DNA of 63,973 bases, counting the filler, from Klebsormidium nitens (taxonomy: Eukaryota; Plantae; Klebsormidiophyceae), in NCBI GenBank assembly GCA_000708835.1. It is 7 parts of 7 records of this genome, joined end to end, with 100 filler letters (N's around TTAATTAATTAA, not from the genome) between each part and the next. Parts side by side here need not be neighbours in the genome. Positions count along the whole stretch, not along the records: positions 1 to 29,944 come from DF237535.1; 6 more parts are not named here. One strand, 5' to 3'. This document shows, piece by piece, positions 1 through 21,095 of this stretch; the first letter of the stretch is position 1, and the number at the start of each line of letters is the position of its first letter. The notes under the pieces were generated by a model. The model did not search any database, was not told where the DNA came from, and was given only the letters and a program-made list of their open reading frames with translations. Both the position numbers and the translations under genes were made by a program.

Positions 1-1349
1 GGCTTAACCAGTCGTAATCGTTACAGTGGGTTGCTCGAAGTTTGAACCTCCAGAGCGTAAAGGGAAGCTTGCCCGTAAAAGCTTGAAAGGTAGGCACTTT
101 GCAGGATTCAAGTGGGCGCTTTGGAATCCAACCGTTCTATCTTCGCTGTCGCCTTTTGAAGTTGTCCGATGTATCGTGAGCCACGGGTGAGCGACGTTCC
201 CTGTTACCCTTCTGAAACTTAGAATCTGGTTTTGGTCACGCCCTTTATTGCACATGTTCTCATGCATGGTTGGCCTTGAGGAGCCATTGAGGCTCTTATT
301 GGTATGGATTAGTTTCGACAAGGCAATTGGCATCTCTTATCTGTCAGACGATATGATCGTGCGTCTTCTTTTTGCGTACGATTACCGCAACCCTTAGCTT
401 GGTGTCGAGCTGGCGCCTTTCTCTTGGACCTTTCAAGACTTCTGTAACATGTCGCAGGCTGGTTTTCAACTCAAAAGCTGTCCGAGTATGTAGCTTGACT
501 TGCCGCGATTGACGGTTTTGCATGTATACGGAGCCACAGTGCGGTCGACGGCTAGAGGCGCAAAGCCAGCGTATTTGCGCGGATAAAAATCATACAATTG
601 CAGCTTAACGACCCTTCCGAACGACCAAGTGCTGTCGTCTACATGCGCTCGTCGCTGACTACTTGCTGTCTGTTTCGCGTCCGTTGTCTGTTTCCAGGAT
701 TGGCCCTTTGAAGTGCTAATGCTTGTGCTTTTCTGCGTGAACGGGTCGACTCGTCTCCTCTGTGTGCTTGTATCTGTCTAAAAGCAAATGTGAGTTGAAC
801 ATAAACATATATCGTCTTTGAGGACCTTGAAGGGCCCTCATATCAGATTGTTGTCGTCATTGCTTGGATCCCTAACAACCAATCCAGCGACCTCAGAGTT
901 AATCGCGGAGCCCCGCCGGCCGCTTCTCCGCACTGATCTTAAAGAAAGTGCTCAATTCTGGATGAACCACCGCCCTTCCTTGAGTTTGAGAACCAGTCGC
1001 CCCTTATCATCTGCATCCATTCCGCGGGCTTCGTCGAAGTGTCATGCGTGCGAAGTTTGAACCGCTTCCGCGAGCAAAGTTTAGGTTATTCCCCGACCGT
1101 CTCTACGTGAGTCTCCAGATACAAGGCCTTGATGGATTGCCCCTCGAGCTGCGCCGCCCGTTCAAACAGCGCAATCATGACAGTCTCGTTGAAATATGGG
1201 CAACGGACGCCATCAAGCCTGCCTGCATCATCCTGCATGCTACTTTCTTGTCTCTGTATGCCCCGCTTCGTGCGCCGCTCTTGCGCAGCGGAGCAGCGAG
1301 ATGCTCAGTCAAGGCCTCGCTAGTCTGACCACGTGTACGGTCGCCCTCT

Positions 1350-3330
1350 GTGTATCTCAGATCGCCACCGACAATACGCATGCCACGTGGTCTCTTTCTT
1401 GGGGGTTTTGCATGCAGAATCAAAAAGCCACTGGCTGGGACTTCATTGTAATCTTCCTTAGCTCTCAGTCGTAGATTTCGTGCCCATTAATCTAGCCACA
1501 CTGTCTCTCAAATACCATTGATTGAAACTTTTGCTGAGGTGGGTGGCTGGGACTCGATCTCCACGGGCTCCTCGAGTGCCCACTCATCATCATTCTGACC
1601 AGCATCTGACGCCACCATCAGTCGGGCCCGTTCGTTGATCCCCTGCTGGAAACTATCCAAGCTTTGTACGTTAGGCTGCTAGAGAATCGTAATCCTGCTT
1701 TTGGCCCGGGTCGTTGAACAATTGCGCTGGTACATTCTCGGGGAACTCGAATGCACGGTCTTCGTAGAGCTCGGACAGCCAGCCCCATGTGTTACAAGTG
1801 TAGTTGCTTCCAACGGAAGGACGCGTTACGGCATGCGTTGTTCATCCCGATTCCATTTGCCGTGCGCCGTTTGTATGAGGCCACTGAAGTGCTTCTCTGG
1901 TAGTGCTTATCTGAGCCGGATTCACGTGTACATCTGTTAGTGACTTTTCATGACTTCGATTGAACTGCTTGTTCCTAAGGAAGTTCTTATTGGTTTGAAG
2001 CCGTTCGCGAAAGTCAAGTAGCCAGGTAACGCCTGGATAATTTCGATCCTTGTACTTTGTACGTTCTTTGGAACGTAGCCTGGCAGTGAGTCGGGGCCCC
2101 TTGCAAACGAGAACTAGCTAGAGGTCGTGTCTCAGTCAGTCTCGTGGTCCCCTCGTGGTGATTGCCCTCCGAAGCCCGACTTAGCGGGCCGAATGCCGTG
2201 CAGCTCTCTAAGTTCTGGATGGTCATAGGTTACATTTGAGGTCCATATTCACGTCCTGACTACCTGAGACACTCAATTGCGGGGTTACCTATGGGAGGAT
2301 GCTTTCTCCATCTCAAATCTGTCTTTTAAGGGGCACCGGCCGGCTGTGAAGATTCCAATCCGTGTGGGCTTTCCCGAAAGAATGGCGTAGCCCACCGGTA
2401 TTGGTCGAAGGAAAAGTCTGAAGCCATGTATCTTTGTAAAAGATATCCAAGCATCCATTAGCACGGTGGACTCAAGCGCTTGCCTTGTGCTTTTCTCGGC
2501 TCAACGGACTCTAGCTACGTACTCAATTCAAAGGCGGGCATCAGTGGCAGATTATGCAACAAAATGTCGGGCCGTTCGGGCAAACGGCTTTCCATGAGCC
2601 TGATCTTGCTGAGACCGTCTATTCCTGATTTGGCTTGTCCGCTTGCGTCCTCGCTCTGCTTCCTGCTGGTCTTCTCCGACCAATCAAGTCCGTCAAAGCA
2701 GGGCTAGCTCCGGCTTTCCGCCACAATATTTGGAGGTTGGAATACTTGGCCCAGAGACACAGTTGGTCCTCAAACCCGTTTCGTGTTGGAGCCGAGGCGT
2801 TCTATGCAGGATTCCGCCCCTGCGTGCCTGGTCAAGAAACAGCTCACTTGGTTGATAATGCCACCTACTATTAAAAATCGAGATATTTACCCGTTTCAAC
2901 AAGGCACGTAATCCGTGAGTCGCGATTCTGAAACATCTCGTTGTTGCATCTGGACGTAGTCTGTTCTCCATCCTGTTCTCAACCCTGTTCTAGCCAAATA
3001 TTATTTGTACAAGTTGCTCGTGGCCTTGATCGACTTGCCACAAAACGAGCAATGTCTCAATGGACAGAAGCTCCGGGCCGACCTGATGCCACCAGGGTTG
3101 GACCAGTACGGCCCTGTATTGCGTATTTGCGCTTTCAGAAGCTTCAATGAATCATATCGTTTCGTGCGACGTGTGCTTCCTAGGTGCTGGTCTCAAACCT
3201 CGAATCAAACTCTTCCGGTTACGATTAAAAGCCGTCCTGATTTGAGGAACCTAGGCCCACCGGATATGGCGCGGCCGTCCGCTTCTCCACTTGACTGTTC
3301 GTCCGGAGTTTTGTCTATGATGACTTGACA
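1350..3330. repeat. Copy I of a decayed multi-kb paralogous repeat family (probably a pseudogenised gene family)
   Basis: Shares anchors with the other copies: GGCGTAGCCCAC at 2384 (also 8329, 11398), CCTGGTCAAGAA near 2827 and 8777, and an exact 17-mer CCGACCTGATGCCACCA at 3078 and 8979. No long ORF in any frame. Boundaries approximate. Confidence 0.55.
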
Positions 3331-6300
3331 TGGCGGGGGCACTCTCTTGCCATGGTTTTTCGAGGAAGTGGATTGGATGTCAGAGGCAACTCAAGAAACT
3401 TTGATGGTTTTGCATCCTTCCTAATGTGAGTGCTTGATAGAGAGAGCGGGGCTTCAGATTCGTCACAATTCTGGATTTCTCATCTCTCCACGTTTACGAC
3501 CTGACCTGTACAGTTCTGCTTCCGGTAGCTTTGTTTGGGGCGTGCAGCGCAGATTGTAATACTTTCAGCCCGCAAAGCCTCTGCTTTGGAACTGCCTATG
3601 GAAGGGTCGCGTGATCTTTGAAAAGCCTGGCCGGCCCAGCCAAAACGTGACGCTTGTCAACGTTCATGACCGCCCCTCCTTGCTTCTTAATAAGCATTTC
3701 TTTGTTTTCAACTGCGGGGAAGAAAGCGTGTTGAGGTAGGCAATAAATATCCGCACCAAGTGTGGTACGTAGCCTCCGGCGGCCACTTGCTCGGCGCCGG
3801 TCCAGTCTCAGCACGTGTAAAGTGGACCGTGAAGTGACGTCGAATGTACACTTCGGTTCTGATTTCCATCTAAGCCCCCCAGATCCGAACTTGCAGTCGC
3901 AGGCAGCTCGGAGTCGGACACCTTTGCAAATCACCCGGCGTGTGTTTCTTATACTTGGAATTTGACGTGGGCGAACCCCTCCTTCGCGGCGACCTCAGGC
4001 CTGATGTGCCACCTTAGCAGTCGCCGCTGGCATGCACTGGCAAGACCACGTTGGTTGACGCACGAATGTGAAAGTTTGGATCTCTTCCCGCATCCTACTT
4101 CGCGATCTGAAATGCGACGAGCGCATTGAAGGTCATTGCAATCGGCCCCTTTAAAATCTGAATCTGCGTAGTGGAGCTTCTTGTACGGCTGACCTGGCTC
4201 TTAGGCTGGATCGATTCGATGAAAGCCTGACGACTTTGGTGCACAGCCCGTCACTGTGACGTGATACCACTCCCTTGCTGGGCTTCTAGATCGATTTGAC
4301 TGCGGGCATCACGTTAGCCTGTTCTTTGACTCGCTTTCATGTACCGTGTGAATGGCTCCTATTTCTGAGAATATTGCCCAGACAAAGTAAGAAGGCTCCT
4401 TGTACAAATCTTGCTTTGCTTGCTTGTATTGATGCACTTTTCTGAAACACTTCGCTTCTCGAACTGGCTATGAGCAGCGCGAGGTTAATTCCTCATTGGT
4501 ACTCCTGGTCTTCGTCGATGTGATGCCAACAAGAACGTCGAAGCGCTCTGGACAAGGCAATCAACAAAAGACCACACTTGCCATACAACCGCTTGGCGGT
4601 AAGGAGTCGGCAATCAAGGCTCTGCTTGTGCTTTTCACCACCACCCGTTCCTTTGGTGCTTTCTGCCCAGGGCCGGGGGTGCCCGGCCGCCTTATTGCAC
4701 GATTGCCTCCCCAACCTACCCAAATTTGTCTCAGATTGGCGACACTGCATGGCACTTTCGGTGGAAAGCTTCAGCTTGATCGTGGAACTTCAGCTTCAAT
4801 GCCTTGCATTCATTTTTGCCTTGGCAAAAGACAGGAAACAACTGGACAGCGTTCAGCCACAGTTTTCAGTCTGAGCAGCATCCGGTGCATATGTGGGCGC
4901 GGTAGTTCGTTCCATTCGTTATCGTTCGCTGGGGTCCCTTTAAAAGTTTCAAGGCCTGAATGATTCGCGAGAAAGTTTTGACGGTTGCTTAAAAAGACTG
5001 CTTGGAAAGTTGAGTCAGCCGAAGCAGTGCAAACCGTTTAGGTTTACGGTGATTCGTGGCCCAAGTGCCTGACCAGAAACTCAAGTTTGTGTGTGATTTC
5101 GGCCTTTGACTTGAAAGAATCGAGTTGACTTTGCAATGTCAATTCAACTTTGTGTTGACGACTCCTCCACTTAATGGAACGGCGTGTCTCACATTTAACA
5201 CTATAGATGCCAGCGGCAGTTTTGCGGCAATGACGCTCAACAGGTTGGCCGCTTCTAGCTGGCATTGATCACCGGTCCTCAAGTTGATCTTTATTCGGAA
5301 GCTGCCGTTCGATGTCACGCATCTTTCTGGCCGCATTCTTCTACGTGCCCGGAAAGCGTTGCTTGATTCATGGATCTCTTGATCAGACCGTACGACTTTC
5401 CGATACAATTTCTTGCGTGAGCTGAACCCTTTGCGTGTCGGATTTTGCTAGCTAGCCGCCAGTAATCAGGCGGGACTATCTTAGCGTATGTCGTCTTTAT
5501 GAAACCAGGCTGATGAGTAGTACTAAAGCTTTTAATCGGCCAAGATCAGATTGTCCGTGGAGTTGTTCTTCTCGTGGGCCTTCCGTTTCGGCCCACGAGA
5601 ATCGGAAGGCTCTAAGTCGGGTGTTGTGCGGAGAAGGTGAATGTCTCGTCGCATCTTGAGCAACTGGAGTCGAGCCCCGTCGTGCAGAGTGGTCGGCTCC
5701 GTCCTGCGTGATTCGTGCTTACAGTTGCATGCTAGAATTCTCATTGAATTCGATGACCCGCGTTCGGAGAGCTGGCGCTAGTTGCCTCTACGAAAGCTTG
5801 GGTGGCCGCAGAGCATCAGCCTCTACGGTTGTACCTCGTTCAAACCGGTGTCGTCCAACGGCAAACAAAGGGCAGACATTAAACAAGAATTGCCAGTGTG
5901 TGTCGGCTTGTTGTGACCATGCTCGGCAGCCGGATCAAGGGCCACGTGGTTTTTTCGAGACGCATTTGAGTCATTTAGACGGCCAGTGTTGTTAGCGGGA
6001 ATTTCCAGTGCAATCTTGGGAACTGCCCCACAGCACTATTGGCCTAGTGCGCCCGAACTTTCACTCGACGTCTTTGTCGACATATAGCCTGGCAGTGACG
6101 AACTCCTTCGAAACGGGAAATTAAGCCCCGACTCTCAATCCAGGGGAATTTCGCTCAGAGCCTTGCTTTCGCTTTCTGCAAACAGCCTGGTCTTTACTGA
6201 AGCAATGTTGGTGGATGAGTATATGTCGAGTCCCGCGGGTACATCGGGAAAGACAACTTGGCGGTCTGGCCCTGTGTTGTCGAATTTTGTTAGCTATTTA

Positions 6301-7259
6301 TCCATCAAACCCAGGTCTTGCTCCGGTGTTCTGGAGTCCCCCTCCGATCCAGAGCCGGGACTAATATCCCAGAGTCGTTTTCTAATCTAGCGTCAGAGCC
6401 CCAATCTTACGCTGTGCATTCTGACACTGTGGGGCTGGTTGACTGAAGGACACAGCCCAAACGATTGAGGAGCTCGCACCTTTTGAGTCTTGATAACTAT
6501 CTTTCCGAGCAGAACAGAAGTCCTTGATGTACCCTCTGACGGCGCCAGGCTTGCACGGACATGCGTACTCCAATCATTGACCGTTTCAAGTTCCTCGTGG
6601 ATGTTATTACTGCACGTACAAATTTCTTGGGTATGATTATATTTCCCTTGAGGAGTGTCTCACTAAAGACGCAAAAAAGACCGGACTGATCATGGAGCCA
6701 CGTCCACCCTCGACCGGTTTCTCTCAGTTCTGCCTAGGATCAATATGTGGGCTCCTCGAAGATTCTGCCCATATCTTGTCGGTGGGTGACGGCGTCATCA
6801 GCTTCGTCTAAACGGCGCCTTCGGATACTAATCTTGCAGTCATGATGCTGGACTTGATTACCAACTTGAGCTTCTCGATTGACAATTTCGATCAATGCTG
6901 CCTGCAAGATCCCGAACGTGCATGGTTATCCAGCGACCAGTAGCTGGCAGATGCTAAGTTGATACTTTGTGGGAACTTTGCTCCCGGACCCCCAACTGCA
7001 GATCAGATAGTAGAATGCGCAAACACCGGGGCACGAAGACGCGCGGGCTGCCATTTAAGGCAAATTTAAGGTGTAACTTTGGTTATCAAGTACTGAAAAC
7101 GTTCAGTGTAGTAGGTTGATCAGGAACGAACGGCTGGCGAACTATATGTGGGCTCCGGCATTATTAAACTTCGCCGAAACAATTCCTCAGTTTTGAGACC
7201 CAGCCTGAAGCTCAGTGCGAGCGCCCGCTCTCACAAACGTGTGTAAGTGCGCGACTCTG

Positions 7260-9000
7260 AACCTATCCTTTGTGCAAATGTGCTTTTCTCCTGCTGTCTT
7301 CAGAGATCACTGAGCGAAGTCTGTTTAAAAGGGATGTGCACTTGCGGCTACTTTAAGGCTACCTTACTTTTAGGAGAAAAGGCTCTGACGAGTCCCCATT
7401 GGCTGAATCGCGCACTTAAAAGCGCGACGCCAACCTTGGTGCCCACATCCACGGATGCCTTTAGAATCTGTCAATCTCCTGCGTACTTTTTTCCAATATT
7501 TTTCGTCCGCTGATTTGCGGAAGCGGACGAAAATGGCTCCACTCGGCTTCCGCAATGGAGTCGCAACGCCCGTCGGACGTACGATCGGAATTGCCGTCGG
7601 GGCTGCGTACGCCACACCGAGACGCTCTCGTTCTGCGATTCTTTGCTTGGAGCTTCTCAAATTACAATGGTCTCCATTCTCAGCTTTAAATGGTCTCAAT
7701 GGGGGACCGCTTGCCGTAGGACTAAAAAGCTCGACAGCCCTCTTGAGGTGCCGCCCATTTTGGACAAAAATCCAATTTTAGACTGCTTGCGTGAAAAACT
7801 TTTGAAGCCGCACGCTGAGATACTCATAAGCAGGTGCTCCGAGATCTTCCGTGTGCCCTTCACTAGTTGCTGGCTGTGATCGAAGAGCTCCTCGCAAAGA
7901 CTGAGAGTCAGAGCACCGTCTCTCAGACCTTCTGGTCGTTTTCGGAGCCTGAGCCATCCATCTGGGCGGCATGACGTGTGGCTGACGTTCATCCAGGCGG
8001 GCCACGCGCGTCGAGGCTTAGTAGCCTCCTTGCAATCCAACCAGTGTGTCACGTCGCGCTTCTTTTGAAGCTTGGGGTCAGGCATGTGTTTGGCATTTAT
8101 TTGTTCCTTTGAATGTAAGCAATGGCAGCTTACAGTCAATGACGGTCCAACCGCATGCCCTGACCTCCAGGCGTTTCTGCAAGAGCGCAAAGCGTGCAAG
8201 ATGTGGTGCCGGACTAGCGAAGCCAATTAATTAACGTCTGCTCCGATACGTAGATCCTTCATTCCCGGTTTTGCATGGGCTGTGAGGAGTCGCACCCGTG
8301 ATGTGATGGGCTGCCCTAGAAATTAACGGGCGTAGCCCACTTCTCGTGGAACGAGTCCATGATCCGGAAGCCCTCACACCTGTTCGTGTGAGGCAGCGGC
8401 AGTATAAAGTTGCATATGATGTAGCAAGGTGGATCCATTCAAGCGCCGGACGCTAGGACTTTCACCTCCATGATGATCAAAACTGTCTAGTTGCTCACTC
8501 AAACGCGCAGGAGAAACGCGGCAAATTAGGTACAGTCAATCACCTGAATGAAAAGCGCGTCGCTCTCGAAACGATACGGGGCCTAATATAGCCACTCTTT
8601 CTTGGAACCAAGTGATCATGATATGACGGTCGGCTCTCAGGCTCTGGTTCGGCCCCGGTTCGGGTACGTTGGAGTCGCGCCCTCACTGGCAGCTAGCACT
8701 GTTTATGCCCCAAGCTGTTGGTCTCCCTTTTCTGTCCGTCTGGAGCCCCGGCGTTCTGTGCAATTCTACTGCGGGCCTGGTCAAGAAGGAGTTCTCCTTC
8801 CTCTTAAACTTGATAATAGTTCAGACCCTAGCAGCCAAGTCCGATATATCGTACTATCTTCTGATTACATGGACGTACGCACTCTGGTTTTGACCGCAAA
8901 AAGACTTTCATGGTACCGAGGTACTCGGCTGTGATCAGATCACCTTGAGCAGTCTCATTTAGGCTTCGAGCGCTACTTCCGACCTGATGCCACCATGACT
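7260..9000. repeat. Copy II of the decayed repeat family
   Basis: Colinear with 13820-15480: CTGCTGTCTTCAGA start (GTGCTGTCTTCAGA in copy IV), GGGGGACCGCTTGCCGTAG (~7702), CCTGAGCCATCCATCTG (7948; also 13024, 14523), GCAGCCAAG...TGGACGTA (~8831 vs ~15421). Stops and frameshifts in all frames. Confidence 0.75.
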
Positions 9001-12000
9001 CAACGTGTCGGCTTGATTCCGGCCCAGGATTATGCGTGCTTCTGTGCATTTTGAGCGTACTAAATTTCTGATGTATGCGTGATGAAGGCCTCGGCACCAG
9101 CTTCTCTCAAACCGCACTTGAAGATTCTGCTTGCAAACTTGAGGCATAGCAGTCACATCGTCCTTCTAAGATGAATTCCTGGGTCGAGTTCACCCGATGA
9201 AGTGCTCATTAGTCTATTTTCTGACTTTTCTTGCCGACTTCGCACCTTTTTGCCAGCTCTGTATGATGTCGTGCCGTTGTGCAAGTAACTTGCGGATCTA
9301 CCACGTACCGCGAGGGCTGTCAGATGATCTGCGAGTGGATTTCTCTTGTGAAGCTTAAGTTAATGAAGGGCCAGGAATTGTTAGTATCGATACATCCAAC
9401 TTTATACCCGACTTCGTCACTAACGCAAATATTGCGTGTAATATGTTTCCACTTGGTCCCCTTCACCATAAGGTCGGTCAAACTTTTCAGCCCTCTTTGT
9501 GGGACTGCCAAGATTTCACGAAACAGCTTTTCCCACGGATCTTTTACCACGGATCTGTGTCCATGTGGGTGATCACTTGAAGTGACGGTGGGGCAGTTTC
9601 TCATCATCACTACAAAGCTATGGTTATCCGAGCAGACGTCAGAGACAGATAGAAAGAACAACACTGCTTTGTAAGCTTGCTTTGATTCATTGAAAGAGGC
9701 TTTGGAGGCTTGATTGTCTATCTGAATCGGCAGCAGAGATTTGAGGCCAGCCCTTAACCAGTTTTCCGTAAAACAGCGCGTTCTTGATCATGCCAACTGA
9801 TAAGTTCAAGAAGTCGTTTTAAAGCTTTCTGTAGGATTGAATCGTGAGTCGGGTTCAACCTTGGCTTTTAAAATACACTATCAGGGCTCTGCCTCATTAA
9901 AAGCTGGTGCTTTTATCCTTTTCTACAACCTCATCAAGATATTTGAATGTTGCCGCCTCATTGATCTGCTCCAAAAGTTTCTTAGGTTCGGCGCCGGATT
10001 CCAAAGTCAAACACCCGTGGCTTGATCCAGTAAGCTCTTGACATCGAGCTCGCAAGATCAAGTCTATCAATAAGGGTGAAGTATGACCGGAAAGCGGCCC
10101 AGTATGGCCATGAATGGCAGTGCTTACGGTTGTCCATCCGTTTCAGAAGTTCGCAGAGAAAATGTTTATTGACTCGGAATTCTCGACGCCTGTTGACTGT
10201 CTAAGCAAGCTTCTTTTGTTTGCTTGTGAAGATTGCTCGTATATTCAACCAAAGCTCGATCAGCAGTACCTGGTGCGATGAAAAGCTCTGTCTCCCGATG
10301 GGCCTGCCCAGAAACTGTACACGACTGTAAGGTTGTTGTTCTGGCCGGCGGCTGCGGCCAGGACGAAGCGCCTTCTGTGTTGCGAGGGGCCTTATATCGC
10401 GATACCATTTGATTTTCTTCTTAAGGAAGTCCTTTCAACCGGGTTCCAGCTTCCAACCGGTTGTGTGAGCCCCGTTTCCGTCTTATGAGATCGCCTGTAA
10501 GTTTTCGAAGCAGTGCAAACAGGACTGGTCTCTTACTTTAGCGCGTGAACCCGAATCTTTTGCCTTGCCGCCCACCATCGTTTTCTCTCAGCCTGCGAAA
10601 ACACTCTCCGTCTGTCCTAATCAATTTTAAAGTTTTGACACCCTCATGGAACCGTGGCCGGGATTGGAGGGCTTTGAACTGAGAAGCGCACTCACTGCGC
10701 CCTCTGCCAAAGATGATGAGCCACTTAGCGGAGGCAACACAATGGGTTCCAAAATAGACCCTACTATCTGGTAGCGCAGTGCGTCCTCTTTTCCACAAGT
10801 TGTTTTCGATCAGAGCAATTGTTCTTTCTCATGTACATGCCCAGCTTGTTGAAAATGATTCTGAATTGCCACGTCTGCTTCAAGTTGCATCCGGGTGTTA
10901 AGTTATAGGACGGTCATTCGGGCACTGTGGCAATGGCGAAGTCTTGCATGGCCATCTGGCCAATGGTCGGTGGCCACCCTTTGTTCCACAGACTGAGCCG
11001 TTGTAGCTTCTAGATAACAATTGCGTCCCCAAGATTCTGGCTTCCACTAGAGTGCCATTCCGACTGTTTTTCCTGATTGCCATGTCTAGGAGGCTACGAT
11101 GACGTGCGTGGTTCTGGTAACTCAAATATGTATCCAGTCAATTCGAGGAGCATTGAGGTCTAGATGCCAAACTGCATTCATTCATAATTACACGAATTAT
11201 GACGCTTTCCGTCCCGTTTTTTGGGAAGGGATTGAGTATTTGAACTTGTTCGTCGCTCGTCTCTCCGAATTGCCTCTATTTGATGCTTGATCAGCCACGT
11301 ACGCCGAATTCTGGTCCCCAGACTCTTGTTACACCCTTCTGCCTTCCTTGCGCACCGGCTGTGAGAAAGGGCCAGCAAGTGGGATGTCTAACGAAGGGGC
11401 GTAGCCCACTGGCTCAGATGAAATATTTTGATGCCATGTGTACGCGCATATTTCTCTGCTGTCACTGGCTCTGCGTGCGCTCGCCCACCAGTGATCACAT
11501 AGAAGACAAGTCCTGAGCTCAGCTGCTGCTGACTTGCGAGAATGCCTTCCGTACGAGCTGGAGGGCTCCTGTGATTAAACAAGCTTGAGGGTCTTCATCT
11601 TGGACGGAACGTCCTTGAAAGGGCGGATCCTGGGCGGAACGGAGTGACTTTTCACTGTAGTCTGAATCTAGTGCAGAGCAAGCCGGCCTGGCCGTCGATG
11701 GCTGCACTCTTTCCAGAGCGTCAAATTCCCATGAAATAGTCGGAGAGCTGGGCCGTTCTTGCCAGTCACTTCGCTTTTCACCATCCCGGCGGCTCGCTTT
11801 GTAATTTCACAGATTGGCACCGTTTTTTCCATCGTACCTCCAGTTGACACCTAGGTTTGTCTTTGAAGCGCAGATTCTCGTGACCTGGTGGGCGTCGAAG
11901 CGCCCTTATATCTGTGGACTCTGGCAGGCTCGCTCATGCGACGTCCAGCCTTCTCGCGGATGCGAATGGCCCGGCAATCCAGCCGTGCTAACGTTGTTAG

Positions 12001-12639
12001 CTGGAATTTGACCCTTCGCTCACTCGAGATGCAAGTGTGGTCCTTACTGCGGCTTGATATTTGATTGGAGCTGTGGATCCTTCAGATTGAGCTCAATCTG
12101 ACGAGCTACGAAATGCTCCACTGTGGCTGTGATTCAACCCTTAGGTGATGGCGGTTCCGCCACGGTTCATCTTGCAATTGGAAGTTTTGATGCCACTTGT
12201 ACGTCTGTTTGCGTTTTTCTGCTCAGGCAAATTTTGTTCCCAGACGGTAGGCATCAGTGTCTGCATTGCAAGCGGGTTTTAGTAAGGGTAGAGTTCTTCC
12301 ACCATTTTGAAGGTAGTCCACAACAACTTAAATTTGATTCGGTATACTCTAGTAGACCAGGCAATTCACTTCCGCTTGGCTCCGGTGAAGTAATTAAGGC
12401 TCAGTCGATGCAAGCTGGAACCTCGTTCGCTCTGCAAGGGACCTGCCATGTAGGGCGCAGATCGCTGTGGAGTTGTGCACACTTTTCCCGAGTCCGGTGT
12501 AGTTCGGCTGTGAAGAAGTGGAGCTCATCTGGGCAGAATCTCGCTCGAGCCTCCTGAGCGGGAGCCCAGTACCTCTAGGGACTGCTCTTACTGAGCCCTC
12601 GTCGTCTGTGATCCAGTTTCAGGGTTTAGAAGCCCGTCT

Positions 12640-13620
12640 TGCAGGTTATGAGTAATATGCAGGATAGATTTGCCGTCGGGATTGCGCACGCCACACGGTG
12701 ACAGTCTTGTTCTGAAAGATCTCTGCGTAGTTCTAAGTTCTCAATCTTGCGAGGTACTTCAACGGGGGGCCGCTTGCCGTAGGATTCGAAGCTCGACAGC
12801 CGTTTCGAGGTGCCACCCACTGTTGAACAGATGTTCCCCAGCTTTGGACGGCTTGTTATAAAGGAACGAAATACAAGATTTTTAGGCTGCACGCTGAGAA
12901 CCTTAGAAGCATGTGTCTTCACATCGTACTTGTGCTCTTTATTCCTTGTCGGCTTTGATCGAGGAGCTCCTTGCAAAGGCTGAGAGTTAAAGCACCGTCG
13001 CTCAGTCCTTGTCACGCTCGGTGCCTGAGCCATCCATCTGGGCGACATGACGAGTGGTCGACGTCCATTGCAGCGGGCCATGCACACGCGTCGGCGCTTA
13101 CCAGCTTCCTTGAAACTTGAATGTGTAACGCCGCGCTTCTGAAGCGCTCAGGAACGGCCTTGATATATCGTGCTTGTTGTTTTACCTTGAAAGCTCGTCG
13201 CTTGATTTCATGTAAGAACTAACAGCACGGCTTTACCCCGAGCTCGAGGGTTCATTTATGTCGAAGCGCAAGATGTAGGGCCTGCTACGTGCGAGGCTGA
13301 CTCTGTCCGTGTCCCACCTCTTCATCCCCTTTATGCATGGGTTGTGAGGATCGAGAGCCCGTATGGGCTGCTCCGAAAAGTGCGTAGCTCACAGCGGCTG
13401 TTAAATCTGAAGCCTTTACGTTTGTGGGCGCGAGTAGCGGCGGCAGCAAGTAGCAAATTGGGTGTGAGCGCTTTCGGTGTCGAGCTACCCGGATCCATGA
13501 TCAAAGCTTTTGCTCGCTTCGTGGTGGGCATTGGCGGCGGTCCCGCAACCTGCTGCAGACGCGAATATTGCTCTTTGAAGGCAATAACATTGTTCCCCCT
13601 AGCTTCACATAGCTTGCAGG
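12640..13620. repeat. Copy III (partial) of the decayed repeat family
   Basis: GGGGGCCGCTTGCCGTAG (~12765), CCTGAGCCATCCATCTG (13024), GGCATTGGCGGCGGTCCCGCAA (13527, identical at 15027). Confidence 0.8.
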
Positions 13621-13819
13621 TCCTTTTTGAACCGACATGGATAAAGTACTTCAGTTATGCTGAAGGCTTGTGTCGAGTACGGCTGGCGCAATGCAAAAGT
13701 AGCCGCATGTGGGCTTGGGTATAAGTTGGACTTTTCCGACATTCGCTGAGTTCGCAGCCCCAGCTCGAGGCTAAAACAAGCGCGCCGTCTCTAGCAAACG
13801 TCTGTAAGTGCGCTATTGC

Positions 13820-15480
13820 GAACCTTTTCTTTGTGCCGCTGTCTTTCTTCTCGTGCTGTCTTCAGAAAACAAAAGCAAATTCTGATCAGGTGAGATGTGC
13901 AATTGCGGCTACCTTGAGGCTGCCTAAGTTTCAGGAGAGAAGGCCCAGACGGTTCCCCGTTGGGCTAAACCGCTCATTCATGAAGGGGGACGCAAATTAA
14001 TCAGAGTGAAAATATGCCGGATGCCTTTAGACTCTGAAAGTCCTGCGTTTGTATTCCAACTATTATTTTTCCACTGAGTTTCGGAAGCGGACTAGAATGG
14101 GTCCCCTCGACTCCGCTGCGGCTTCCATTGGAGCCGCAAAGCCTTTCGTACGCACGAGCAGACTCGCCGTCGGGACTGCGCACACCTGCACACGGTGACG
14201 GTCTCGTTCGGAGGATCATTTGCTTGAAGCTTCTCAAATTGAAAAGGTACTACAACGGGGGGCCGCTTGCCGTAGAGATTTGCACGCTCAACAGCAGTAT
14301 CAAAGTGCCACTCATTTTGGAACAGACGTTCCCCAGCTTTGGACGGCTTGTGTGAAGGAACTTGGAACAAATATCAAGCTGCACGCTGAGATGCTCAGAA
14401 GCATGTGCCTTCAAATCGTAATTTAGCCCTTCATAAGTTGTCGGCTGTGCTTAAATAGCTCCTTGCAAAGACTGAGAGTCAAAGCACCGTCTCTCAGTTC
14501 TTGTCAAGTTTTTTGCTCGGAGCCTGAGCCATCCATCTGCGCGACATGACGTGTGACTTGACGTGCATTGCAGCGGGCCACACGCGTCGACGCTTAGCAG
14601 CTTTTCTGAGATTCACATGTGTAACGTCGCGCTTCTGATCACAGCTCGGGAACGGCCTTGGAAGATTCTGTGCTTGTTGTTCCGGCCTTGAAGGTTCGTT
14701 GCTTACGTTCAAAAGGATCTAACTGCACGTCCTGAGCTCGAAGGTTCAATTGTGTCGATGCGCAAGATCCAGAGCCTGCCTCGTGCGAGCTGACTCTGTC
14801 CGCGTCTTCCAATTGGTCCTCATTATGCACGGGTTCTGAAGATCTGGACCCGTGGCCTGCTCCAGAAGGGCGTAGCTCAGTCCGAAGCGGCTATTCGATC
14901 TGAAGCCCCTCACGTGCTTACGTTTGTAGGCGCGAATAGTGGTGGCACCAAGTAGCAAACTGGGTTTGAGCGCTTGTGATGTCGAGCTATCGAGATCCAT
15001 GCTCAAAGCAATACTTTTTCAAGGCGGGCATTGGCGGCGGTCCCGCAATCTGCAGAACGCAAAGGTTGCTCTTTGAGCGCCGTGATGTGCTCGCTTTGGT
15101 TTCAAGTAGCCAGGTCTCTTTAATCCAAAGCGCCCCGGTGAAAGGACGGTCTGCTCTGCTGAAGGCTTGTGATTCCGGTTGGCTCCTGATTACACTGTGC
15201 TTGCACTGGTTTCATCTGACTGATGGACCTCTTCAAGCGTTGTCTAGTACCGTTTTGTGCGAAATTTTCTGCCCCAAAAGTGAGTCCTACCGTGGATCGC
15301 CCTCAGTCTGTATCCGAGACGTCCTCTGCAATTCGTTACTGGGCGGCCTCGTCACGAAACAGCCCAATCGCGTTTCAGGCCCTTCTGCAATCAAAGACGT
15401 ACTGAGATTGCCCTTTTCGAGCAGCCAAGCCTTGCAAAGTACAATTTCTGCCAATTTGGCCTTGGACGTAGTATGGTCTT
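13820..15480. repeat. Copy IV of the decayed repeat family
   Basis: Same ordered anchors as copies II and III. Directly in tandem with copy III. Confidence 0.8.
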
Positions 15481-15969
15481 AATCATGTCTGGCAAAGAAT
15501 GTGGTACTACTTGTGGCCTTGCATGATTGACTCGCCAATGAATGTTGCAATGACGACAGCTGATACTAACTATACTAGCTTGGTTCGGCGAATAGCCCCA
15601 TCCCGGCCTAGATTGCGCTCGTGCCTCTAGCTTATATCGTATGTGCTAGCTCTGGTACCTATAGTGAGGGCCTACACTCTGCCGGCAACATTGGGAACAT
15701 GTATTTCGAACATGTGTCCGACTTTCGTACACCGCCGTTGCCGCCATCAGCCCCCACCGTCCAGAATCTCTGGCTTGTTGGGTCCCTTATCAATCGGTGC
15801 TGGCTTTCCTGGTTTTTTACTTCTCAGACGGTTTCGCTGCAAAGTACGTCTGTGTGCCAACTCTTCATGATCGAGTGAGCCAGAAACAATGTTGCGCAAG
15901 CGGGTCGCGCATCGACCACCGCAAGGGCTGCCAAATGGGTTGCAAGCTTTCGCAGTCCGTTCTTCCATT

Positions 15970-16310
15970 GGCTTCGTAACGGCTGGGGGCTTCTAGAATC
16001 TATGCGTGGGGTCCCGACATGGAGTCCCACTGGCAGCTGATGACTTTCTTGAGATCGGAGCCCAAGCCTGAAGGTTTGATCGTGGTGCCCAAACAACAAG
16101 ATTGACAAACAAATTCGTGATGTGTAGCGAAGTGTTTCGAGGATCTTTGGAAGGCTTCGCTCCTGCATGTGGTGCTGGAGAACGGCTATGAGCGACAGGA
16201 TCAGGCTGGGCTGCTTTTGGTAAAGGTCAAAAGCCCATGGGCTGATAGCGAGACCGGATCGTAGACTCCTGCCATCAGTGGAATGTATTGTAGGAATTGA
16301 TTTCGACACA
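15970..16310 (-). pseudogene. Degenerate relic related to the 265-aa viral-cluster ORF at 21146-21943
   Basis: Encodes GLAISPWAFDLY versus GVGLDPWAFDLY in the intact ORF. Across PWAFDLY the nucleotides differ only at third codon positions (ccatgggcttttgacctttac vs ccctgggcgttcgacctctat). Similarity outside the motif is weak. Confidence 0.45.
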
Positions 16311-16573
16311 CGTTGTTTTGGAGCACGTACTGTTTGTCTTCACGCTTGCATGCGAATTTTGCGCGTTTCTTAATTTGCGGGGCCGCTTACACTCGTGGGC
16401 GTGGCTCAATTTTTATCACCTGACTGCACGGAGTTGAGGTTCCTGCATTACTTGACGTGGCAAAATAGCTTGTCGTCAACCTCACCAACTCGCGGGGATC
16501 ACAGCAGAGACAGCTCCAGATTATCGACTATCGCACCTTTGCTTGGTTGCTTGAGCACGGCTCGGGAGGCCTC

Positions 16574-16657
16574 CTTTCCTTGACGTCTCGGGTATGAGCA
16601 TTGATAGTTAAGAGGCTTTCCTTAACGTCTCGGCTATAAGCATTGATAGTTGAGAGG
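16574..16657. repeat. 42-bp tandem duplication (2 copies)
   Basis: CTTTCCTTGACGTCTCGGGTATGAGCATTGATAGTTAAGAGG followed by CTTTCCTTAACGTCTCGGCTATAAGCATTGATAGTTGAGAGG. Reads LxTINAxxRDVKE twice on the minus strand. Confidence 0.9.
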
Positions 16658-18363
16658 CCAATCTTTCAAACGACGGTGCCGTCCAGCATCTGTGAATTTA
16701 ACTGAACTGTTCATTCGTTTACGAAGCCAATTGTCAATCCCGCTCCTAAGTTGGACCTTTAAAGCGAAGCGAGATTCAAGGCCCTCATTTTCAAGGTTCA
16801 AATACTCCTCACATGCACATCACGTGTGCCTTCGATTTTTTTCGTTGGATGGCCCGCTGGGATGCTTTTCGATCCGCGCCGTCGGATGTGTTCCAAGACC
16901 TTTATCCTCGTAGGTCGTTTAGAAAGTGAAACTCACACATGCAACTTTAGAATGATTAAGTCAGTCCCGGCTTCTAAATAGTCAACTCGAACCTCTGTGC
17001 CTGGACAAAAGATTGGAGAAAGGCGGACTCTGCAGATCTCTTTGCCGATGGCGGTAGGCAATCTCTTTCAGTCGTATGACTCCGATACGATAAAGAAGCT
17101 GGAGACCAGATGGCAACTGAGTTTCATTCCGTCAATGCTTCAGACAAGTGCTCGACATAGTCAAGAAGCACAGCAGATCTGAGCTGAGTGCCTCACCAAA
17201 ACATTTTGCGCGGGCATGGGTTTCTCACTTTGTTGCATAGATGTTCCCACTGAGTGCCGTCCAGTGAAGCTGTGCTCCAGTAAACAAAGACATCGTGTGC
17301 TACACTGGTGCACTTGGGGGCAGTCCTGGTGCACTCTAAGTTAAGCGGCTATGATGGGAGAACTTTCAATTTCGGCCGTATTCGGTCACTCCGGGCTTTA
17401 GGAGGACTCGCGGAGCCGCATTCCACGCGCATCCCTCTGGCAACAGCTGACTTAATACATCGTTGGTACCGGAGTGGGAATCCTCAAGCACAATTATTAT
17501 ACAATAGGCCTCAAGGGAAGCTTCCCTTAAGAGCCCAAGCTCGAGCGTAGAGGGTAAAAATCAGGATACACCGTAACTTGCTGGAGTGACTCGAGAATTG
17601 GAGTGAGTTGCGCTAACTTTCTGAAGCTGTCACCTTGGTACAAACCGCTTTCGATTTGCATGTTGTTGGCGGCAGTAAGAAGGGGGCACGCTACCAGTGG
17701 GTGGTCGTGTTTTGTCAAAGCACAAGAGTTCAGGCACGTGTGGAAGCAGAAAGGCCGTTATTTCATCATCAATCGGGTGCGACGCCGATTATGAAGTGTT
17801 TGCATTGTTCACCAGTGACGGGAGCATGGTTGTCCGCGCAGGGTCTTGCGTTTTATCCACGCTTAAGGACTGTGCGACCGGGCGTGCTTCTAATATTGAT
17901 TTTCCTGAATTGCCATGCGCTGCGATGTCCAAGCGACGGTCCCTTTTTGCTATCAAAATGTTTGGATATCTGCGGGCGTGAGCTTTTTCCACCGGACTTT
18001 ACTGCGTTTGAAGCTGTGTCCATGATGACTTGACGTGGCGAGATGCAATTTCGTCAAGAACTGCTTCATTGGAAAGCATCAGTAAGGCAGAGGCGGCTAG
18101 CTCACCAATTATCGAGATTTAGCAAGGCTTGCTTTGGTCGATCAAGTACAATTGGGAGGTGTCGACTTTTTTGTCTCGATCGGCTTTGAGCATCGAGAGT
18201 TGTGAGGCGAGTTCCGCAGTCCAACTTGAAGGTCGCGGCGAGCTACAGATGCAGCTTGCCAGGTCGAGTACGCGCTTGGCCTTAAAGTTTTAAGTGTGAA
18301 CCTGTGTGCCTCGACTAGAGATGGGAGTCCGTCGCCTGGAAGCGCCCAGCTGGCGGCCACTAA

Positions 18364-20883
18364 TCAATTAATTACGAGAGTGGGCTCATCTTTGAACTTG
18401 CTCTCGACCACCGCCATCTCCGCAACCCGGTCGAAGGTCTTGATCAGGTAGCCCAGGCGCTTCGTCTGGTTGAGGATGCAGCTGAACACTCGGATCTGTA
18501 AAAAGGGGATCAGACCGCGTAAAAGTTCGAGAGTGCCTTCTTGTAAGGCGACTCTTTGTGTGTCTTTCGCTTGACCTGCCGTTTCGCTGGTTCCAGCTTG
18601 ATGGTCTTACGCGAGATAGTAGGCTTCGGTATATATGGCATGTAATGCTTCGCCCCTGGGTCGAAATATAGATGGAATGCGTTCACTCGGCCCCTTGTGT
18701 TCGCGGTGTCGAACTCGCTCTCGCCCCCCGACTTTATGTGCACCACGATCTTAGCTTTGAGGAGCGCACTCAGAGCTATTAGTTCCGTGTTGCCTGCATA
18801 TGTGGTGGTCCTACTCATGACTCGCTTATAAGAGGGCCCGTCCTTGATGTTCGCCTCTCCGTCTACGTTGTTGCTCGCGTATTCGTTGAGAATGAGCTCG
18901 CCGCCGGTCAGGTTGCCTCTTATCCCCCCTAGAGGAGTTCTCATATGTCCGATGACGTAATCTACGGCAGCCTGTCTGAGCTTCTTGGAATTCCGGATGA
19001 TATACGTTCTGCTGAGCGTCGTCACGTCTACGCCCTTTGCCGCTAGAGATGCCAGGAGTATGCTGTGAAAGAGACAACTGCCGTCCCCAGGCACGTGCAT
19101 CAGTTTGAAAGTGGGTGGAACTTTGGAGCTGGACTTCCGCACGGGACCCCCTCTCTGATGCGACGCGCACCTATCTGAAGATGGAATCTTTACGCAGGCT
19201 GCACGCCTCTTGCAGTGTGCATCTTTGCGAGTCTTGCCCGTGCAACGTTCGCACGCCATGCTTCCTGTATTAAGCTCATGGAAATTTTCGGGCACTCGCC
19301 TGTTGGCCTCTGTGAAGCAGATAGTCGATGGGTACGAAGGTGGCCTTGGACATCTCGATCTGGTCGAAAAGGAGGTTGAGCTTGTCCGACAGGCGGAGCG
19401 GCAGCGCCGTGTCCTGGACGCAGTACCTCGCGATCTCTGCGATTCCTTCCGGCGTCCCCTGCTCGAACAGTTCGAAGAGCCGGCGGATGGGCATGTCGTT
19501 CTTGTGCTCGTTCAGGGTGACGGAGGCCACGTTTTCCAGGCTGTAACTGTCTAGCTTGTGCGACCGCTTCACGGCCTGCATGAGATCCAGGTCCAGGATC
19601 CCCTGCATGCTGACGAGGAGGAACTTGTTGAAGCCGAACGCTGCGGACTCCAGCTGTTTCTCGCTCAGCGTGCTGGGGACTCCTTTCAACCTGCCGACGT
19701 TAACAGGGACGCCGGCCCGCCGCGCAGACTTGTACAGAAAGTTCCAATCAAAGCCGTAGCCGTTCCAAGAGTAGATGACGTCCGGAGACTCATTCATCAG
19801 GAGGCGCTGCCAGGCCATGATGACCTCTCCTTCGGAGTCGTAATTCTCCACCACGACCCCTTCGATCGGAGCGCAGTCTTTGAGCGTGATCACGTGCCTC
19901 AGGTAGGGTTCTTTCTGGCCGTACACCTTGAAGGTGCTGCCGATGGTGATGGTCCGAGCTCCTTCGAAGGAACCCTCCGGAAATGAGCCGTCTGTGGTGT
20001 AGGCCTCTATGTCGAAGCTGCACTCCACCAGAGGCGGGATCTCAGCCCCTTGTCCTGCCTCCGTACGCTTGGCTCGGATGGCCGTCTGAGGGATGAGGAA
20101 CTCCAGGTCGCACGTGGACACCTGTCGAGCCTTGTCGACAGGTTTGCGTCCTCCGAGGTCGATGGTGTGCCAGCCGCATGGCAACGAGCCCGTCTCGTGA
20201 AAGAATTGGATGACTGGGGGCACGTTCGCTTCGTAGAGCGCGAATCGATGGGGGTCTCTCTTCAGCACCCACACGTTCAGTGGCTTCTTCTGTAGAGCGT
20301 ACTGGCACTGCTTCAGCGCCTTGTCCGAGGTGACTTGGAGCTTGTAGAAGAGGAAATCCTTGTCTCCATGGTAGCCTGCACGAAAAACGCACTCCTTTCA
20401 GTAATGCAAAGAGCAGGAGGGTATCTTTGATGACAACCAGGTATCGGCACCAGCACGCTAGCTTTGCCACTTTGCTCATGCGACTTCAGGCCTAGCATAG
20501 AACTTCTTGCTTCGCAGAGAGGTGACTCTTGCGATTCCTCCGTACGCCCGCCCGTTGATCGACAGGTAGATTCTTTCTGCAGTGGCGGTGGACTCCGCAT
20601 GGCCCCATCCTTCGGGAGCCTCCAGGTACAGTGCAGGGGCGAACGGTATGCGCAGGCACACGCTCTTGCCCTCCGCCGTCCGCCCGTACATGTAGATGAA
20701 GCACTGCTTAGCCGTGTCCTCCGCGTATGCAGCCCCGCCGTAATCATCAGGATGTTCGTCGTCTCGTTTCTTGTAAGATTGGATGAGGTCTATACAAGCT
20801 TTGAAGCGCTCGTGGTTGGCTGCTGCTTTGGTAGGGTCCATGTCTTCGTCTCGAGCATCGGTGGTGAGCATGAAAACCTCCAT
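18364..20883 (-). CDS. polB: Family-B DNA polymerase, viral type, spliced and 3'-truncated (N-terminal plus 3'-5' exonuclease region only; 531 aa if spliced)
   Basis: Exons 20883-20496, 20375-19300, 18495-18364. Motifs: YMYGRTAEGKSVC; KKFY-G|G-YHG across intron 1; ExoI SFDIEAY; ExoII WNGYGFDWNFL; YSLENVA; ExoIII YCVQDTALP; LHRGQQ|IRVFSCIL across intron 2. Homology ends at KFK (~18391), before the polymerase motifs. The intron 1 donor reads CT (G|CTAGGC); the intron 2 donor is GC (CAG|GCGAGT). Confidence 0.9.
18510..19259 (-). CDS. OTU-family cysteine protease/deubiquitinase with N-terminal C-x-C-x-C-x-H finger (249 aa), nested in polB intron 2
   Basis: ATG at 19259. VPGDGSCLFHSI carries the catalytic Asp/Cys, followed by YAGNTELIALS and C-terminal KHY (catalytic His). 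N-terminal CTGKTRKDAHCKRRAAC...CASHQ resembles fingers common in giant-virus proteins. The ORF lies wholly within 18496-19299. Confidence 0.9.
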   Translation of the reverse strand: MACERCTGKTRKDAHCKRRAACVKIPSSDRCASHQRGGPVRKSSSKVPPTFKLMHVPGDGSCLFHSILLASLAAKGVDVTTLSRTYIIRNSKKLRQAAVDYVIGHMRTPLGGIRGNLTGGELILNEYASNNVDGEANIKDGPSYKRVMSRTTTYAGNTELIALSALLKAKIVVHIKSGGESEFDTANTRGRVNAFHLYFDPGAKHYMPYIPKPTISRKTIKLEPAKRQVKRKTHKESPYKKALSNFYAV

Positions 20884-20920: not shown

Positions 20921-20928
20921 TTTATATA
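20921..20928 (-). promoter_or_regulatory. TATA box of polB
   Basis: TATATAAA on the minus strand, about 38 nt upstream of the ATG at 20883. Confidence 0.5.
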
Positions 20929-20969
20929 CTGTGGTAAGATCGTCCGAAACTTTTGAACGCTTGAAGCTG

Positions 20970-21090
20970 CCCGTCTTAAATCGGACGGTAGCTAAACCTG
21001 CCCTCTGTCTTATTTCGGACGGGGGTCAGAAGTGCCCCTGTCGATTTTTCGGACAGGGATCCATGTGACCCTCGCGTAGTTTCGGACGGG
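20970..21090. repeat. Four ~34-bp tandem units, each an imperfect palindrome around TCGGACRG
   Basis: TCGGAC at 20981, 21015, 21049, 21082 (spacing 34, 34, 33). Stems CCGTC/GACGG, CCCTCTGTC/GACGGGGG and CCCTGTC/GACAGGG; the fourth is weak. An inverted half-site TCGTCCGAAA is at 20940. Confidence 0.85.
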
Positions 21091-21095
21091 TGGTG

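What the first reader, a model, noticed from the sequence alone, without database searches (positions are those of the whole stretch)
18496..19299. An intact OTU deubiquitinase gene fills a GC-AG intron of the DNA polymerase gene
Seen: PolB stops at ...LHRGQQ (CAG|GCGAGT, 19300/19299) and resumes in phase 804 nt later as IRVFSCILNQ (TTTTACAG|ATC, 18496/18495), restoring the conserved RGQQI(K/R)VFS motif. 750 of the 804 nt are a same-strand OTU ORF whose TGA stop overlaps a branch-point-like CTGAT about 13 nt before the acceptor. Established: viral PolB genes host inteins and endonuclease-bearing introns. Inference: a spliceosomal intron acting as a cargo cassette for a non-nuclease gene, or a splicing switch between full PolB and exonuclease-fragment + OTU outputs. 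I know of no precedent with a deubiquitinase cargo.
Basis: partly seen in the sequence, partly recalled or inferred. Interest (0 to 1): 0.88.

Follow-up and report, generated by a model that had tools for sequence, protein, structure and literature searches.

The report
Deubiquitinase gene nested in viral intron
A giant-virus DNA polymerase gene, likely integrated in a green alga's genome, holds a complete, conserved gene for a predicted ubiquitin-removing enzyme inside what is likely a host-type intron, where related viruses have a short empty intron or none; the copy seen here is a broken relic.

Summary
The anatomy is real. An 804-nt phase-0 insert (CAG|GC...AG|ATC) splits PolB at RGQQ|IRVFS, and a 249-codon same-strand OTU gene fills 750 nt of it. 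172 of 195 PolB relatives run straight through this site. The host named by the protein database is Klebsormidium nitens. The arrangement recurs in at least three further loci: a second copy in the same DNA sample and two read from gene-call tails. OTU is under purifying selection (dN/dS about 0.1-0.16). Relatives have cargo-free introns of 65-154 nt at the same site, or none.

Two corrections. 'GC-AG' is peculiar to this copy: 7 of 7 relatives that break here start with GT. This PolB is also dead: it is cut off at 18383 without the palm motifs, and its first intron's donor reads CT.

Best reading: a nested viral gene in a spliceosomal intron, probably with its own start site. The splicing-switch idea is weakly opposed. 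Non-nuclease genes in viral spliceosomal introns are published (mirusvirus MING-1). A deubiquitinase cargo in a nucleocytovirus PolB intron was not found in my searches. Splicing, expression and enzyme activity are untested.

The parts
20921..20950 (-). Promoter-like pair upstream of PolB (GTTTCGGACG, then a TATA-like word). The divergent neighbour gene at 21146 has the same pair.
   Evidence: function inferred
20496..20883 (-). PolB exon 1 (ATG 20883 to KKFY-G)
   Evidence: G-F/Y motif of homologues
20376..20495 (-). PolB intron 1, 120 nt, phase 1. The acceptor GCAG is intact; the donor reads CT in this copy (probably dead). The second copy has an unrelated, longer sequence at the same place, and P0048/P0049 break at the same acceptor.
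   Evidence: (267 vs 100 letters)
19300..20375 (-). PolB exon 2, 3'-5' exonuclease domain, ends ...LHRGQQ
   Evidence: Pfam DNA_pol_B_exo1 E 2.4e-39; PDB Pol delta alignment ends at RGQQ
18496..19299 (-). Intron 2, 804 nt, phase 0, GC...AG in this copy (GT in relatives)
19260..19299 (-). 40-nt leader between donor and OTU start; candidate place of the OTU start site. The same 40-nt spacing is seen at the P0047 locus.
   Evidence: promoter role inferred
18510..19259 (-). Nested OTU gene, 249 aa: Cys/His-rich N-terminus (residues 1-34), OTU domain with Asp59, Cys62 (19076-19074) and His205 (18647-18645), basic C-terminal tail
18496..18513 (-). Branch-point-like CTGAT overlapping the OTU stop, pyrimidine tract and AG acceptor. 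The second copy keeps GTCTGATC and TACAG and differs between them.
18383..18495 (-). PolB exon 3 remnant (IRVFSCIL...KDEP); the second copy continues in frame beyond 18383, this copy does not
1..18382 (.). ORF-poor sequence that replaces the rest of PolB (edge of the insertion or a rearrangement)
   Evidence: 0 Pfam hits in 31 of 48 open frames tested; one 19,277-nt contig in run X1 crosses the junction

Best explanation
This is likely a nested viral gene: an OTU gene, predicted to encode a deubiquitinase, that lies inside a likely spliceosomal intron of the DNA polymerase B gene of a Klebsormidium-associated giant-virus lineage, so that host splicing would remove the whole gene from the polymerase message. 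OTU would be made from a separate transcript starting in or just before the 40 nt after the donor; lacking a donor, that transcript would not be spliced and would run on into PolB exon 3 as its 3' end (inferred). The intron gives the gene a landing place that costs the essential polymerase nothing. There is no nuclease, so it is inherited with the virus rather than homing. The copy in the window is a decayed, truncated integrant, and its GC donor is a derived change.
For: Shown: the junction restores a motif that is continuous in 172 of 195 relatives. A second copy in the same DNA sample has OTU at the same site, keeps the acceptor and the CTGAT, and continues PolB in frame past 18383. Gene-call tails of P0047 and P0059 are off-frame readings of the OTU start (runs of 12 and 16 residues, 0 of 200 shuffles each). 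OTU differs from the second copy by 23 of 176 residues but 80 of 526 bases, a rough dN/dS of 0.09-0.16. Cargo-free introns sit at the same site: 154 nt (P0056; exon 3 re-entry run of 16, 0 of 200 shuffles), 119 nt (P0148) and 65 nt GT-AG in DNA (L005). P0062 (62% identical) has no break. The OTU-bearing loci form one clade (99/96; 100/99; 100/98). OTU fold: best PDB match OTUD3, E 5.4e-6; Cys and His are invariant in 10 of 10 family members. No group I/II or other RNA family reached its threshold, and no terminal repeats were found. Established: chlorovirus PolB has a spliceosomal intron (PMC7019647, section 19); K. flaccidum (=nitens) has five viral DNA polymerase contigs (PMC5294986, section 8).
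Against: Splicing and the OTU start site are not shown. The intron leader has no exact copy of the GTTTCGGACG-plus-TATA pair that precedes PolB and its neighbour, and its AT-rich word lies only about 10 nt before the ATG, close for a Pol II TATA box (recalled spacing). The public gene models do not use the junction: one stops at ASARKFP, the other splices from inside OTU to the same acceptor and loses His205 (P0057, P0002). The residue two after the catalytic His is Met, not the usual Asp/Asn (recalled feature). The order of events is open: intron-less P0062 is sister to the OTU clade (97/85, 89/87, 93/85), and the site was also hit in the unrelated L005 lineage, so shared position does not prove one ancestral intron (AU test p 0.335). 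Relatives other than the second copy and L005 are read from protein gene calls, not DNA.
Confidence: 0.68

Rival explanations
1. Splicing switch: one PolB promoter; the spliced RNA gives PolB, and the intron-retained RNA gives a truncated exonuclease protein plus OTU by re-initiation or leaky scanning.
For: Same strand; in the window, P0046 and P0058 the PolB frame stops 7 codons into the intron, 17 nt before the OTU ATG in the window. No clear promoter lies in the leader.
Against: In P0047 and P0059 the PolB frame runs 29 and 87 codons, past the OTU start and out of frame, so the layout is not conserved. Donors in relatives are canonical GT. Re-initiation after an ORF of about 500 codons is poor in eukaryotes (own knowledge).
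Confidence: 0.12
2. A mobile cassette: intron and OTU arrived together in an intron-free PolB allele and spread as a unit, with the protein helping its own splicing or spread, like the role proposed for MING-1.
For: The nearest relative of the OTU clade is intron-less. The ORF fills 93% of the intron and its stop overlaps the branch point. The site is a repeated target (L005, P0077), and a relative's PolB carries a GIY-YIG gene in another intron.
Against: No nuclease or reverse transcriptase domain; no terminal repeats or target duplication. All OTU-bearing loci form one clade, which fits plain descent. No OTU intron was seen at any other site or in any other lineage.
Confidence: 0.12
3. Not an intron: the OTU gene inserted into and broke PolB, and the flanking splice signals are incidental.
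For: This copy's PolB is dead anyway. The public annotation does not splice here (P0057).
Against: The insertion is precise at a phase-0 CAG|AT site in at least 4 loci whose exon 2 proteins stay 90-95% identical. Acceptor and branch-like word are conserved while the letters between them change. Short GT-AG introns occur at the same site in relatives.
Confidence: 0.05
4. Assembly artefact or chimera.
For: The window is a string of pieces joined by artificial spacers.
Against: The locus lies more than 10 kb from the nearest spacer. One contig of run X1 matches 16500-19275 with 0 differences (it may be the source data). Diverged copies show the same layout.
Confidence: 0.01

Closest known systems
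Intron-harboured genes of mirusviruses: MING-1 introns and 'shintrons' (PMC12768974; read: abstract, section 9, passages, supplement file 2 part 1 of 9, term search of the readable supplements)
   Same: A whole gene of about 250 codons fills a spliceosomal intron of a core viral gene, at a fixed site, with no group I/II structure; MING-1 is likewise not a nuclease.
   Different: Here the virus is a nucleocytovirus-type integrant, the host gene is PolB (not terminase or capsid genes), and the cargo is a recognisable enzyme family (OTU). It is confined to one small clade, not spread across orders.
Chlorovirus PBCV-1/NY-2A DNA polymerase (a185r) spliceosomal intron (PMC7019647; read: passages and section 19 part 1; PMC6247863 passages)
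   Same: Spliceosomal intron in the PolB gene of an alga-infecting large DNA virus; present in some lineages and absent in others.
   Different: 86-101 nt with no cargo. Its position was not checked here; from memory it lies further downstream, in the polymerase domain.
Giant endogenous viral elements of green algae: K. flaccidum/nitens viral contigs (PMC5294986, sections 8 and 9) and punuivirus of Chlamydomonas (bioRxiv 10.64898/2026.10.09.758095, passages)
   Same: Integrated giant-virus DNA in an alga, several divergent PolB copies, spliceosomal introns in viral genes (61 of 506 genes in punuivirus).
   Different: In the passages read, neither describes a gene inside an intron; 'nested' and 'OTU' occur 0 times in the punuivirus text and 'OTU' 0 times in PMC5294986.
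Viral and cellular OTU deubiquitinases (OTUD3, OTUD1, OTU1/OTUD2; OTU proteins of iridoviruses, pandoraviruses, mimiviruses)
   Same: OTU fold and the D-G-x-C...H-Y motifs.
   Different: At most 22% identity; no Asp/Asn two residues after His; extra Cys/His-rich N-terminus; the family found has only 6 clusters.

Membership tests
U2-type spliceosomal intron | GT-AG or GC-AG ends whose removal restores the frame | tested here: met
   CAG|GCGAGT ... TACAG|ATC, 804 nt, restores RGQQIRVFS; GT in 7 of 7 breaking relatives
U2-type spliceosomal intron | Branch point and pyrimidine tract before the acceptor | tested here: inconclusive
   CTGAT and TACAG are kept in the second copy while the letters between differ, but CTGAT also encodes the OTU's last codon and stop
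U2-type spliceosomal intron | Removed from the RNA | not testable with these tools
   No transcript data could be laid on the junction; see Tried and rejected
Shintron (spliceosomal homing intron) | Nested HNH, GIY-YIG, VSR or PD-(D/E)XK endonuclease | tested here: not met
   Only Pfam OTU matches, even at E up to 5; the fold is OTU
Shintron (spliceosomal homing intron) | Spliceosomal ends and no group I/II signature | tested here: met
MING-1 intron | Non-nuclease gene at one fixed intron site | tested here: met
   Same site in at least 4 loci
MING-1 intron | MING-1 family protein in a mirusvirus terminase gene | tested here: not met
   The cargo is OTU and the host gene is PolB; MING-1 sequences themselves were not compared
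OTU deubiquitinase | OTU profile above the curated cut-off, and OTU fold | tested here: met
   36 bits vs 23.3; model pLDDT 76.7, best PDB match OTUD3, E 5.4e-6
OTU deubiquitinase | Catalytic Cys and His | tested here: met
   Cys62 and His205, invariant in 10 of 10
OTU deubiquitinase | Third catalytic Asp/Asn two residues after His (usual, not universal; recalled) | tested here: not met
   Met, Arg, Thr or Lys at that place in the family; Asp in OTUD3 and OTU1
OTU deubiquitinase | Cleaves ubiquitin or ubiquitin-like conjugates | not testable with these tools
   needs an assay
Intein | In-frame insert translated with the host protein | tested here: not met
   The PolB frame stops at 19278-19276; the OTU ATG is out of frame
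Introner or DNA transposon insertion | Terminal inverted repeats or target-site duplication | tested here: not met
   No repeat pairs the two ends
Giant endogenous viral element | Viral core gene in several divergent copies within one algal DNA sample | tested here: met
   A second copy about 85-90% alike and traces of a third in runs X1 and X3; host name
Giant endogenous viral element | Junction with bona fide host genes | tested here: inconclusive
   PolB is joined to 18 kb of ORF-poor DNA with no identified host gene; no whole genome is held

The most novel reading that the evidence does not exclude
The RGQQ|I intron of algal giant-virus PolB is a reusable cargo slot, found empty, absent or loaded, and in this lineage it carries a deubiquitinase that acts on the nuclear step it depends on (ubiquitin-controlled splicing, or PCNA/histone ubiquitination during viral replication). 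Enzyme and polymerase output would then be tied to one locus: the first host-manipulating enzyme carried by a viral spliceosomal intron, possibly moving with it.
Probability: 0.15. Interest if true: 0.82.

Novelty: new variant of a known kind. Interest (0 to 1): 0.56.

Why it matters
It extends gene-carrying viral spliceosomal introns, described in 2025 for mirusviruses, to the polymerase gene of a nucleocytovirus lineage tied to a streptophyte alga. The cargo is an enzyme family that viruses use against host ubiquitin signalling, not a selfish nuclease. Absent, empty and loaded states of one site are all in hand, which makes the origin of such introns testable. It also implies that this virus needs the host spliceosome to make its polymerase, and it shows the two public gene models at this locus to be probably wrong: a truncated 'Pol delta' and an OTU-PolB chimera.

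Tried and rejected
RNA: no RNA holder listed; RNA-labelled runs X5 and X12 laid 0 contigs at 80% likeness. This is no evidence on expression either way. No joint skipping 18496-19299 was seen in DNA contigs of X1 or X3; an intron-less copy under 80% alike would be missed. No whole genome is held, so the rest of this PolB and the other copies could not be read as DNA. Locus searches: OTU in viral contigs found nothing relevant (two weak motif hits, L001 and L002, not followed), nor in GTDB genomes (one weak hit, L008, not followed). PolB exon 2, P0056 and P0062 found nothing in viral contigs. The single metagenome scan returned only two loci at 40% identity, so the contigs behind P0056, P0148, P0062 and the distant OTU relatives P0004-P0006 were never seen as DNA; whether those distant OTUs are free-standing genes is unknown. 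The ESM Atlas gave no answer, so the Cys/His-rich N-terminus has no assignment (0 Pfam hits; its likeness to zinc-finger motifs of giant-virus proteins is recalled only). An AG just before the OTU ATG could in principle splice exon 1 in frame to OTU, but the tails of P0047 and P0059 do not suggest that it is kept; dropped. The neighbouring OTU-like domain at 23130-23573 is not a close paralogue (probability 1.9%). My first count scored P0056 as continuous; one search corrected it. Of its 14 'not continuous' rows, 8 break at the site (one is the window's own model), 1 breaks two to three residues later (P0172), 2 are continuous on inspection and 3 are mislocated motifs; in 9 rows the motif was not located. 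Literature: 0 papers for OTU + deubiquitinase + intron + Nucleocytoviricota, 0 for Klebsormidium + ovarian tumor + virus, and 'shintron' in 1 relevant paper; searches listed no report of this locus in titles or abstract starts. Three supplement files of PMC12768974 were too large to read, two were cut and one was a scan; the full table of its more than 2,000 intron-harboured genes may be among them, so an OTU there is not excluded.

Full report
1. What is in the sequence. On the minus strand a B-family DNA polymerase gene starts at 20883. Exon 2 (20375-19300) matches the exonuclease domain (Pfam E 2.4e-39), and its alignment to yeast Pol delta ends exactly at RGQQ. An 804-nt insert follows, CAG|GCGAGT to TTTTACAG|ATC, and the frame resumes as IRVFSCILNQ. 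Of 7 frame-keeping donor/acceptor pairs near the ends, only this one restores the motif without adding or losing residues. Of 195 PolB relatives from three searches, 172 read straight through, most often as IKVFS (23 of these rows are near-identical). The insert holds one same-strand ORF, 19259-18510, 249 aa, above the Pfam OTU cut-off. Its ATG lies 40 nt after the donor, and its stop lies inside CTGAT, 13 nt before the AG.

2. After 113 nt of exon 3 the gene runs into about 18 kb of ORF-poor DNA (0 Pfam hits in 31 of 48 open frames of 85 or more codons), and the palm motifs are absent from the window. A 19,277-nt contig of run X1 crosses this junction with 0 differences; it may be the source data, so it shows only that the assembly is faithful. 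The first intron (20495-20376) has a good acceptor, but the donor that keeps the conserved K-x-F-Y-G|Y-H-G-D alignment reads CT; a contig with 0 differences covers it. Other GT or GC donors keep the frame only by changing conserved residues; the public model uses one of them (P0057).

3. Where it comes from. The OTU search hit a K. nitens gene model at 98% (P0002), and the PolB fragment is the next model (P0057). PMC5294986 (section 8, read in full) reports five contigs with viral DNA polymerases, 40-92% alike, in this alga and argues that they are distinct insertions. The window itself is a string of pieces joined by spacers. Both public models look wrong: P0057 stops at ASARKFP, and P0002 splices from a GT inside OTU to the same acceptor at 18496, dropping the catalytic His. 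That a predictor picked this acceptor is mild support for it; I do not know whether RNA backed that model.

4. The arrangement is conserved. DNA runs X1-X3 (one sample) hold a second copy. It has OTU at the same site with 80 differences in 526 nt, a different and longer intron 1 (267 letters for 100), and PolB continuing in frame, with 1,313 more letters on the contig beyond 18383. Its acceptor keeps GTCTGATC and TACAG but changes the letters between. Its OTU end matches P0001, which shares a 4,498-nt longest contig with P0046, whose call ends RGQQ-VSARNFP; I infer that these are the second copy, with a GT donor. P0047 and P0059 run on into the intron, and their tails are off-frame readings of the OTU start: 12 and 16 consecutive compatible residues, 0 of 200 shuffles each. 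P0059 shares a 3,567-nt longest contig with OTU P0003 (65% identical). P0058 starts the intron the same way, but its contig is too short to show the cargo. That makes at least 4 loaded loci. All 7 relatives that break at the site begin the intron with a Val codon, hence GT; the window alone has GC. OTU is under purifying selection: 23 of 176 residues differ, a rough dN/dS of 0.09-0.16 (assuming P0001 is the second copy).

5. Empty and absent states. P0056 and P0148 (66-67% identical, JGI contigs of 125 and 19.6 kb) break at the same site and re-enter exon 3 after 154 and 119 nt, with no sign of OTU. P0062 (62%) reads through. L005, in another clade, has a 65-nt GT-AG intron here while its sister L003 has none, so the site is gained independently; P0077 also breaks here. 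In three trees on 150-205 residues, the OTU loci form a strong clade with intron-less P0062 as sister (97/85, 89/87, 93/85), and the short-intron pair lies outside. A clade of all intron-bearers is not rejected (p-AU 0.335). Rows were chosen by hand from the best hits; the roots are midpoints. So 'OTU entered an existing intron' and 'intron and OTU arrived together' both stand. I lean to the first, about 60:40, because intron 1 is also shared.

6. The cargo. The predicted structure (pLDDT 76.7, pTM 0.70) matches OTUD3, OTUD1 and OTU1 and OTU proteins of several large DNA viruses. Asp59, Cys62 and His205 are invariant in 10 of 10 family members. The usual third residue after His is missing (recalled feature), so activity is likely but unproven. 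There is no nuclease, no RNA family and no terminal repeat.

7. How it most likely works. Shown: layout, conservation, selection, alternative states. Inferred: the host spliceosome removes the 804 nt, so PolB is made whole. Inferred, less firmly: OTU has its own transcript, starting at or just after the donor, unspliced, with its 3' end in PolB exon 3. Against a one-transcript switch, the PolB frame stops 7, 7, 7, 29 or 87 codons into the intron in different loci and overlaps OTU out of frame in two. Against the separate promoter, the leader lacks the GTTTCGGACG-plus-TATA pair found before PolB and its divergent neighbour. An excised lariat has no cap and is an unlikely message (own knowledge). 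In the window's copy the GC donor sits in an otherwise strong consensus and may still splice, but the product would be a truncated polymerase.

8. Comparison with what is known. PMC12768974 (section 9, read in full) describes more than 2,000 genes in mirusvirus spliceosomal introns: 334 endonucleases ('shintrons') and 271 non-nuclease MING-1 genes at one fixed site. This locus works like a MING-1 intron but is not a member, and it fails the shintron test. Chlorovirus PolB has an empty 86-101-nt spliceosomal intron (PMC7019647, section 19 part 1). Nested genes in introns are ordinary in cellular genomes (own knowledge). Searches found no report of a deubiquitinase in a viral intron; supplements I could not read may bear on this. 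Earlier unchecked notes of this scan describe gene-carrying introns in other large viruses, which makes the class look widespread.

9. Verdict. A real, conserved, unreported variant of a recently described kind: interest 0.56. The GC donor and the switch are not the story. The loaded, empty and absent states of one intron site, with an enzyme as cargo, are.

Noticed in passing
L005 8695-9468: The PolB of this viral contig has a 757-nt GT-AG intron inside the DFAS-LYP motif that is filled by an antisense 253-aa GIY-YIG endonuclease gene (Pfam E 5.7e-10; ends read): a shintron-like element in a nucleocytovirus polymerase. Several other short introns in the same gene look like copies of each other.
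   Followed up: partly
proteins P0050, P0051, P0054, P0061: Four further PolB gene calls break right after DFAS, suggesting a second intron hot spot.
   Followed up: no
window 22200-23576 (+) and 21976-22185 (-): The long ORF has a tandem 54-nt repeat in the middle and a C-terminal OTU-like domain without the catalytic Cys (Pfam E 0.058). Its N-terminus and the small opposite ORF look histone-fold-like by eye, but no Pfam or PDB hit supports that.
   Followed up: partly
window 20921-21100: Divergent promoter region between PolB and the 21146 gene: TTTCGGAC occurs four times in 130 nt, and each gene has GTTTCGGACG followed by a TATA-like word.
   Followed up: partly
window 1-18382: ORF-poor, apparently single-copy DNA with three diverged copies of a block near 7.7, 12.8 and 14.3 kb; nature unknown.
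   Followed up: partly
window 19409-19652: Loose ends in run X1 show a third, more distant viral PolB copy resembling intron-less P0062; its state at the RGQQ site was not seen.
   Followed up: no
window 23788-28918, 31902-33032, 42973-45977, 55811-57343: LRR and COR-domain ORFs, repeated T5orf172-type genes, a cytosine methylase, Ty3/gypsy-like remnants and a C962R-type primase, the last four on other pieces of the concatenated window.
   Followed up: no
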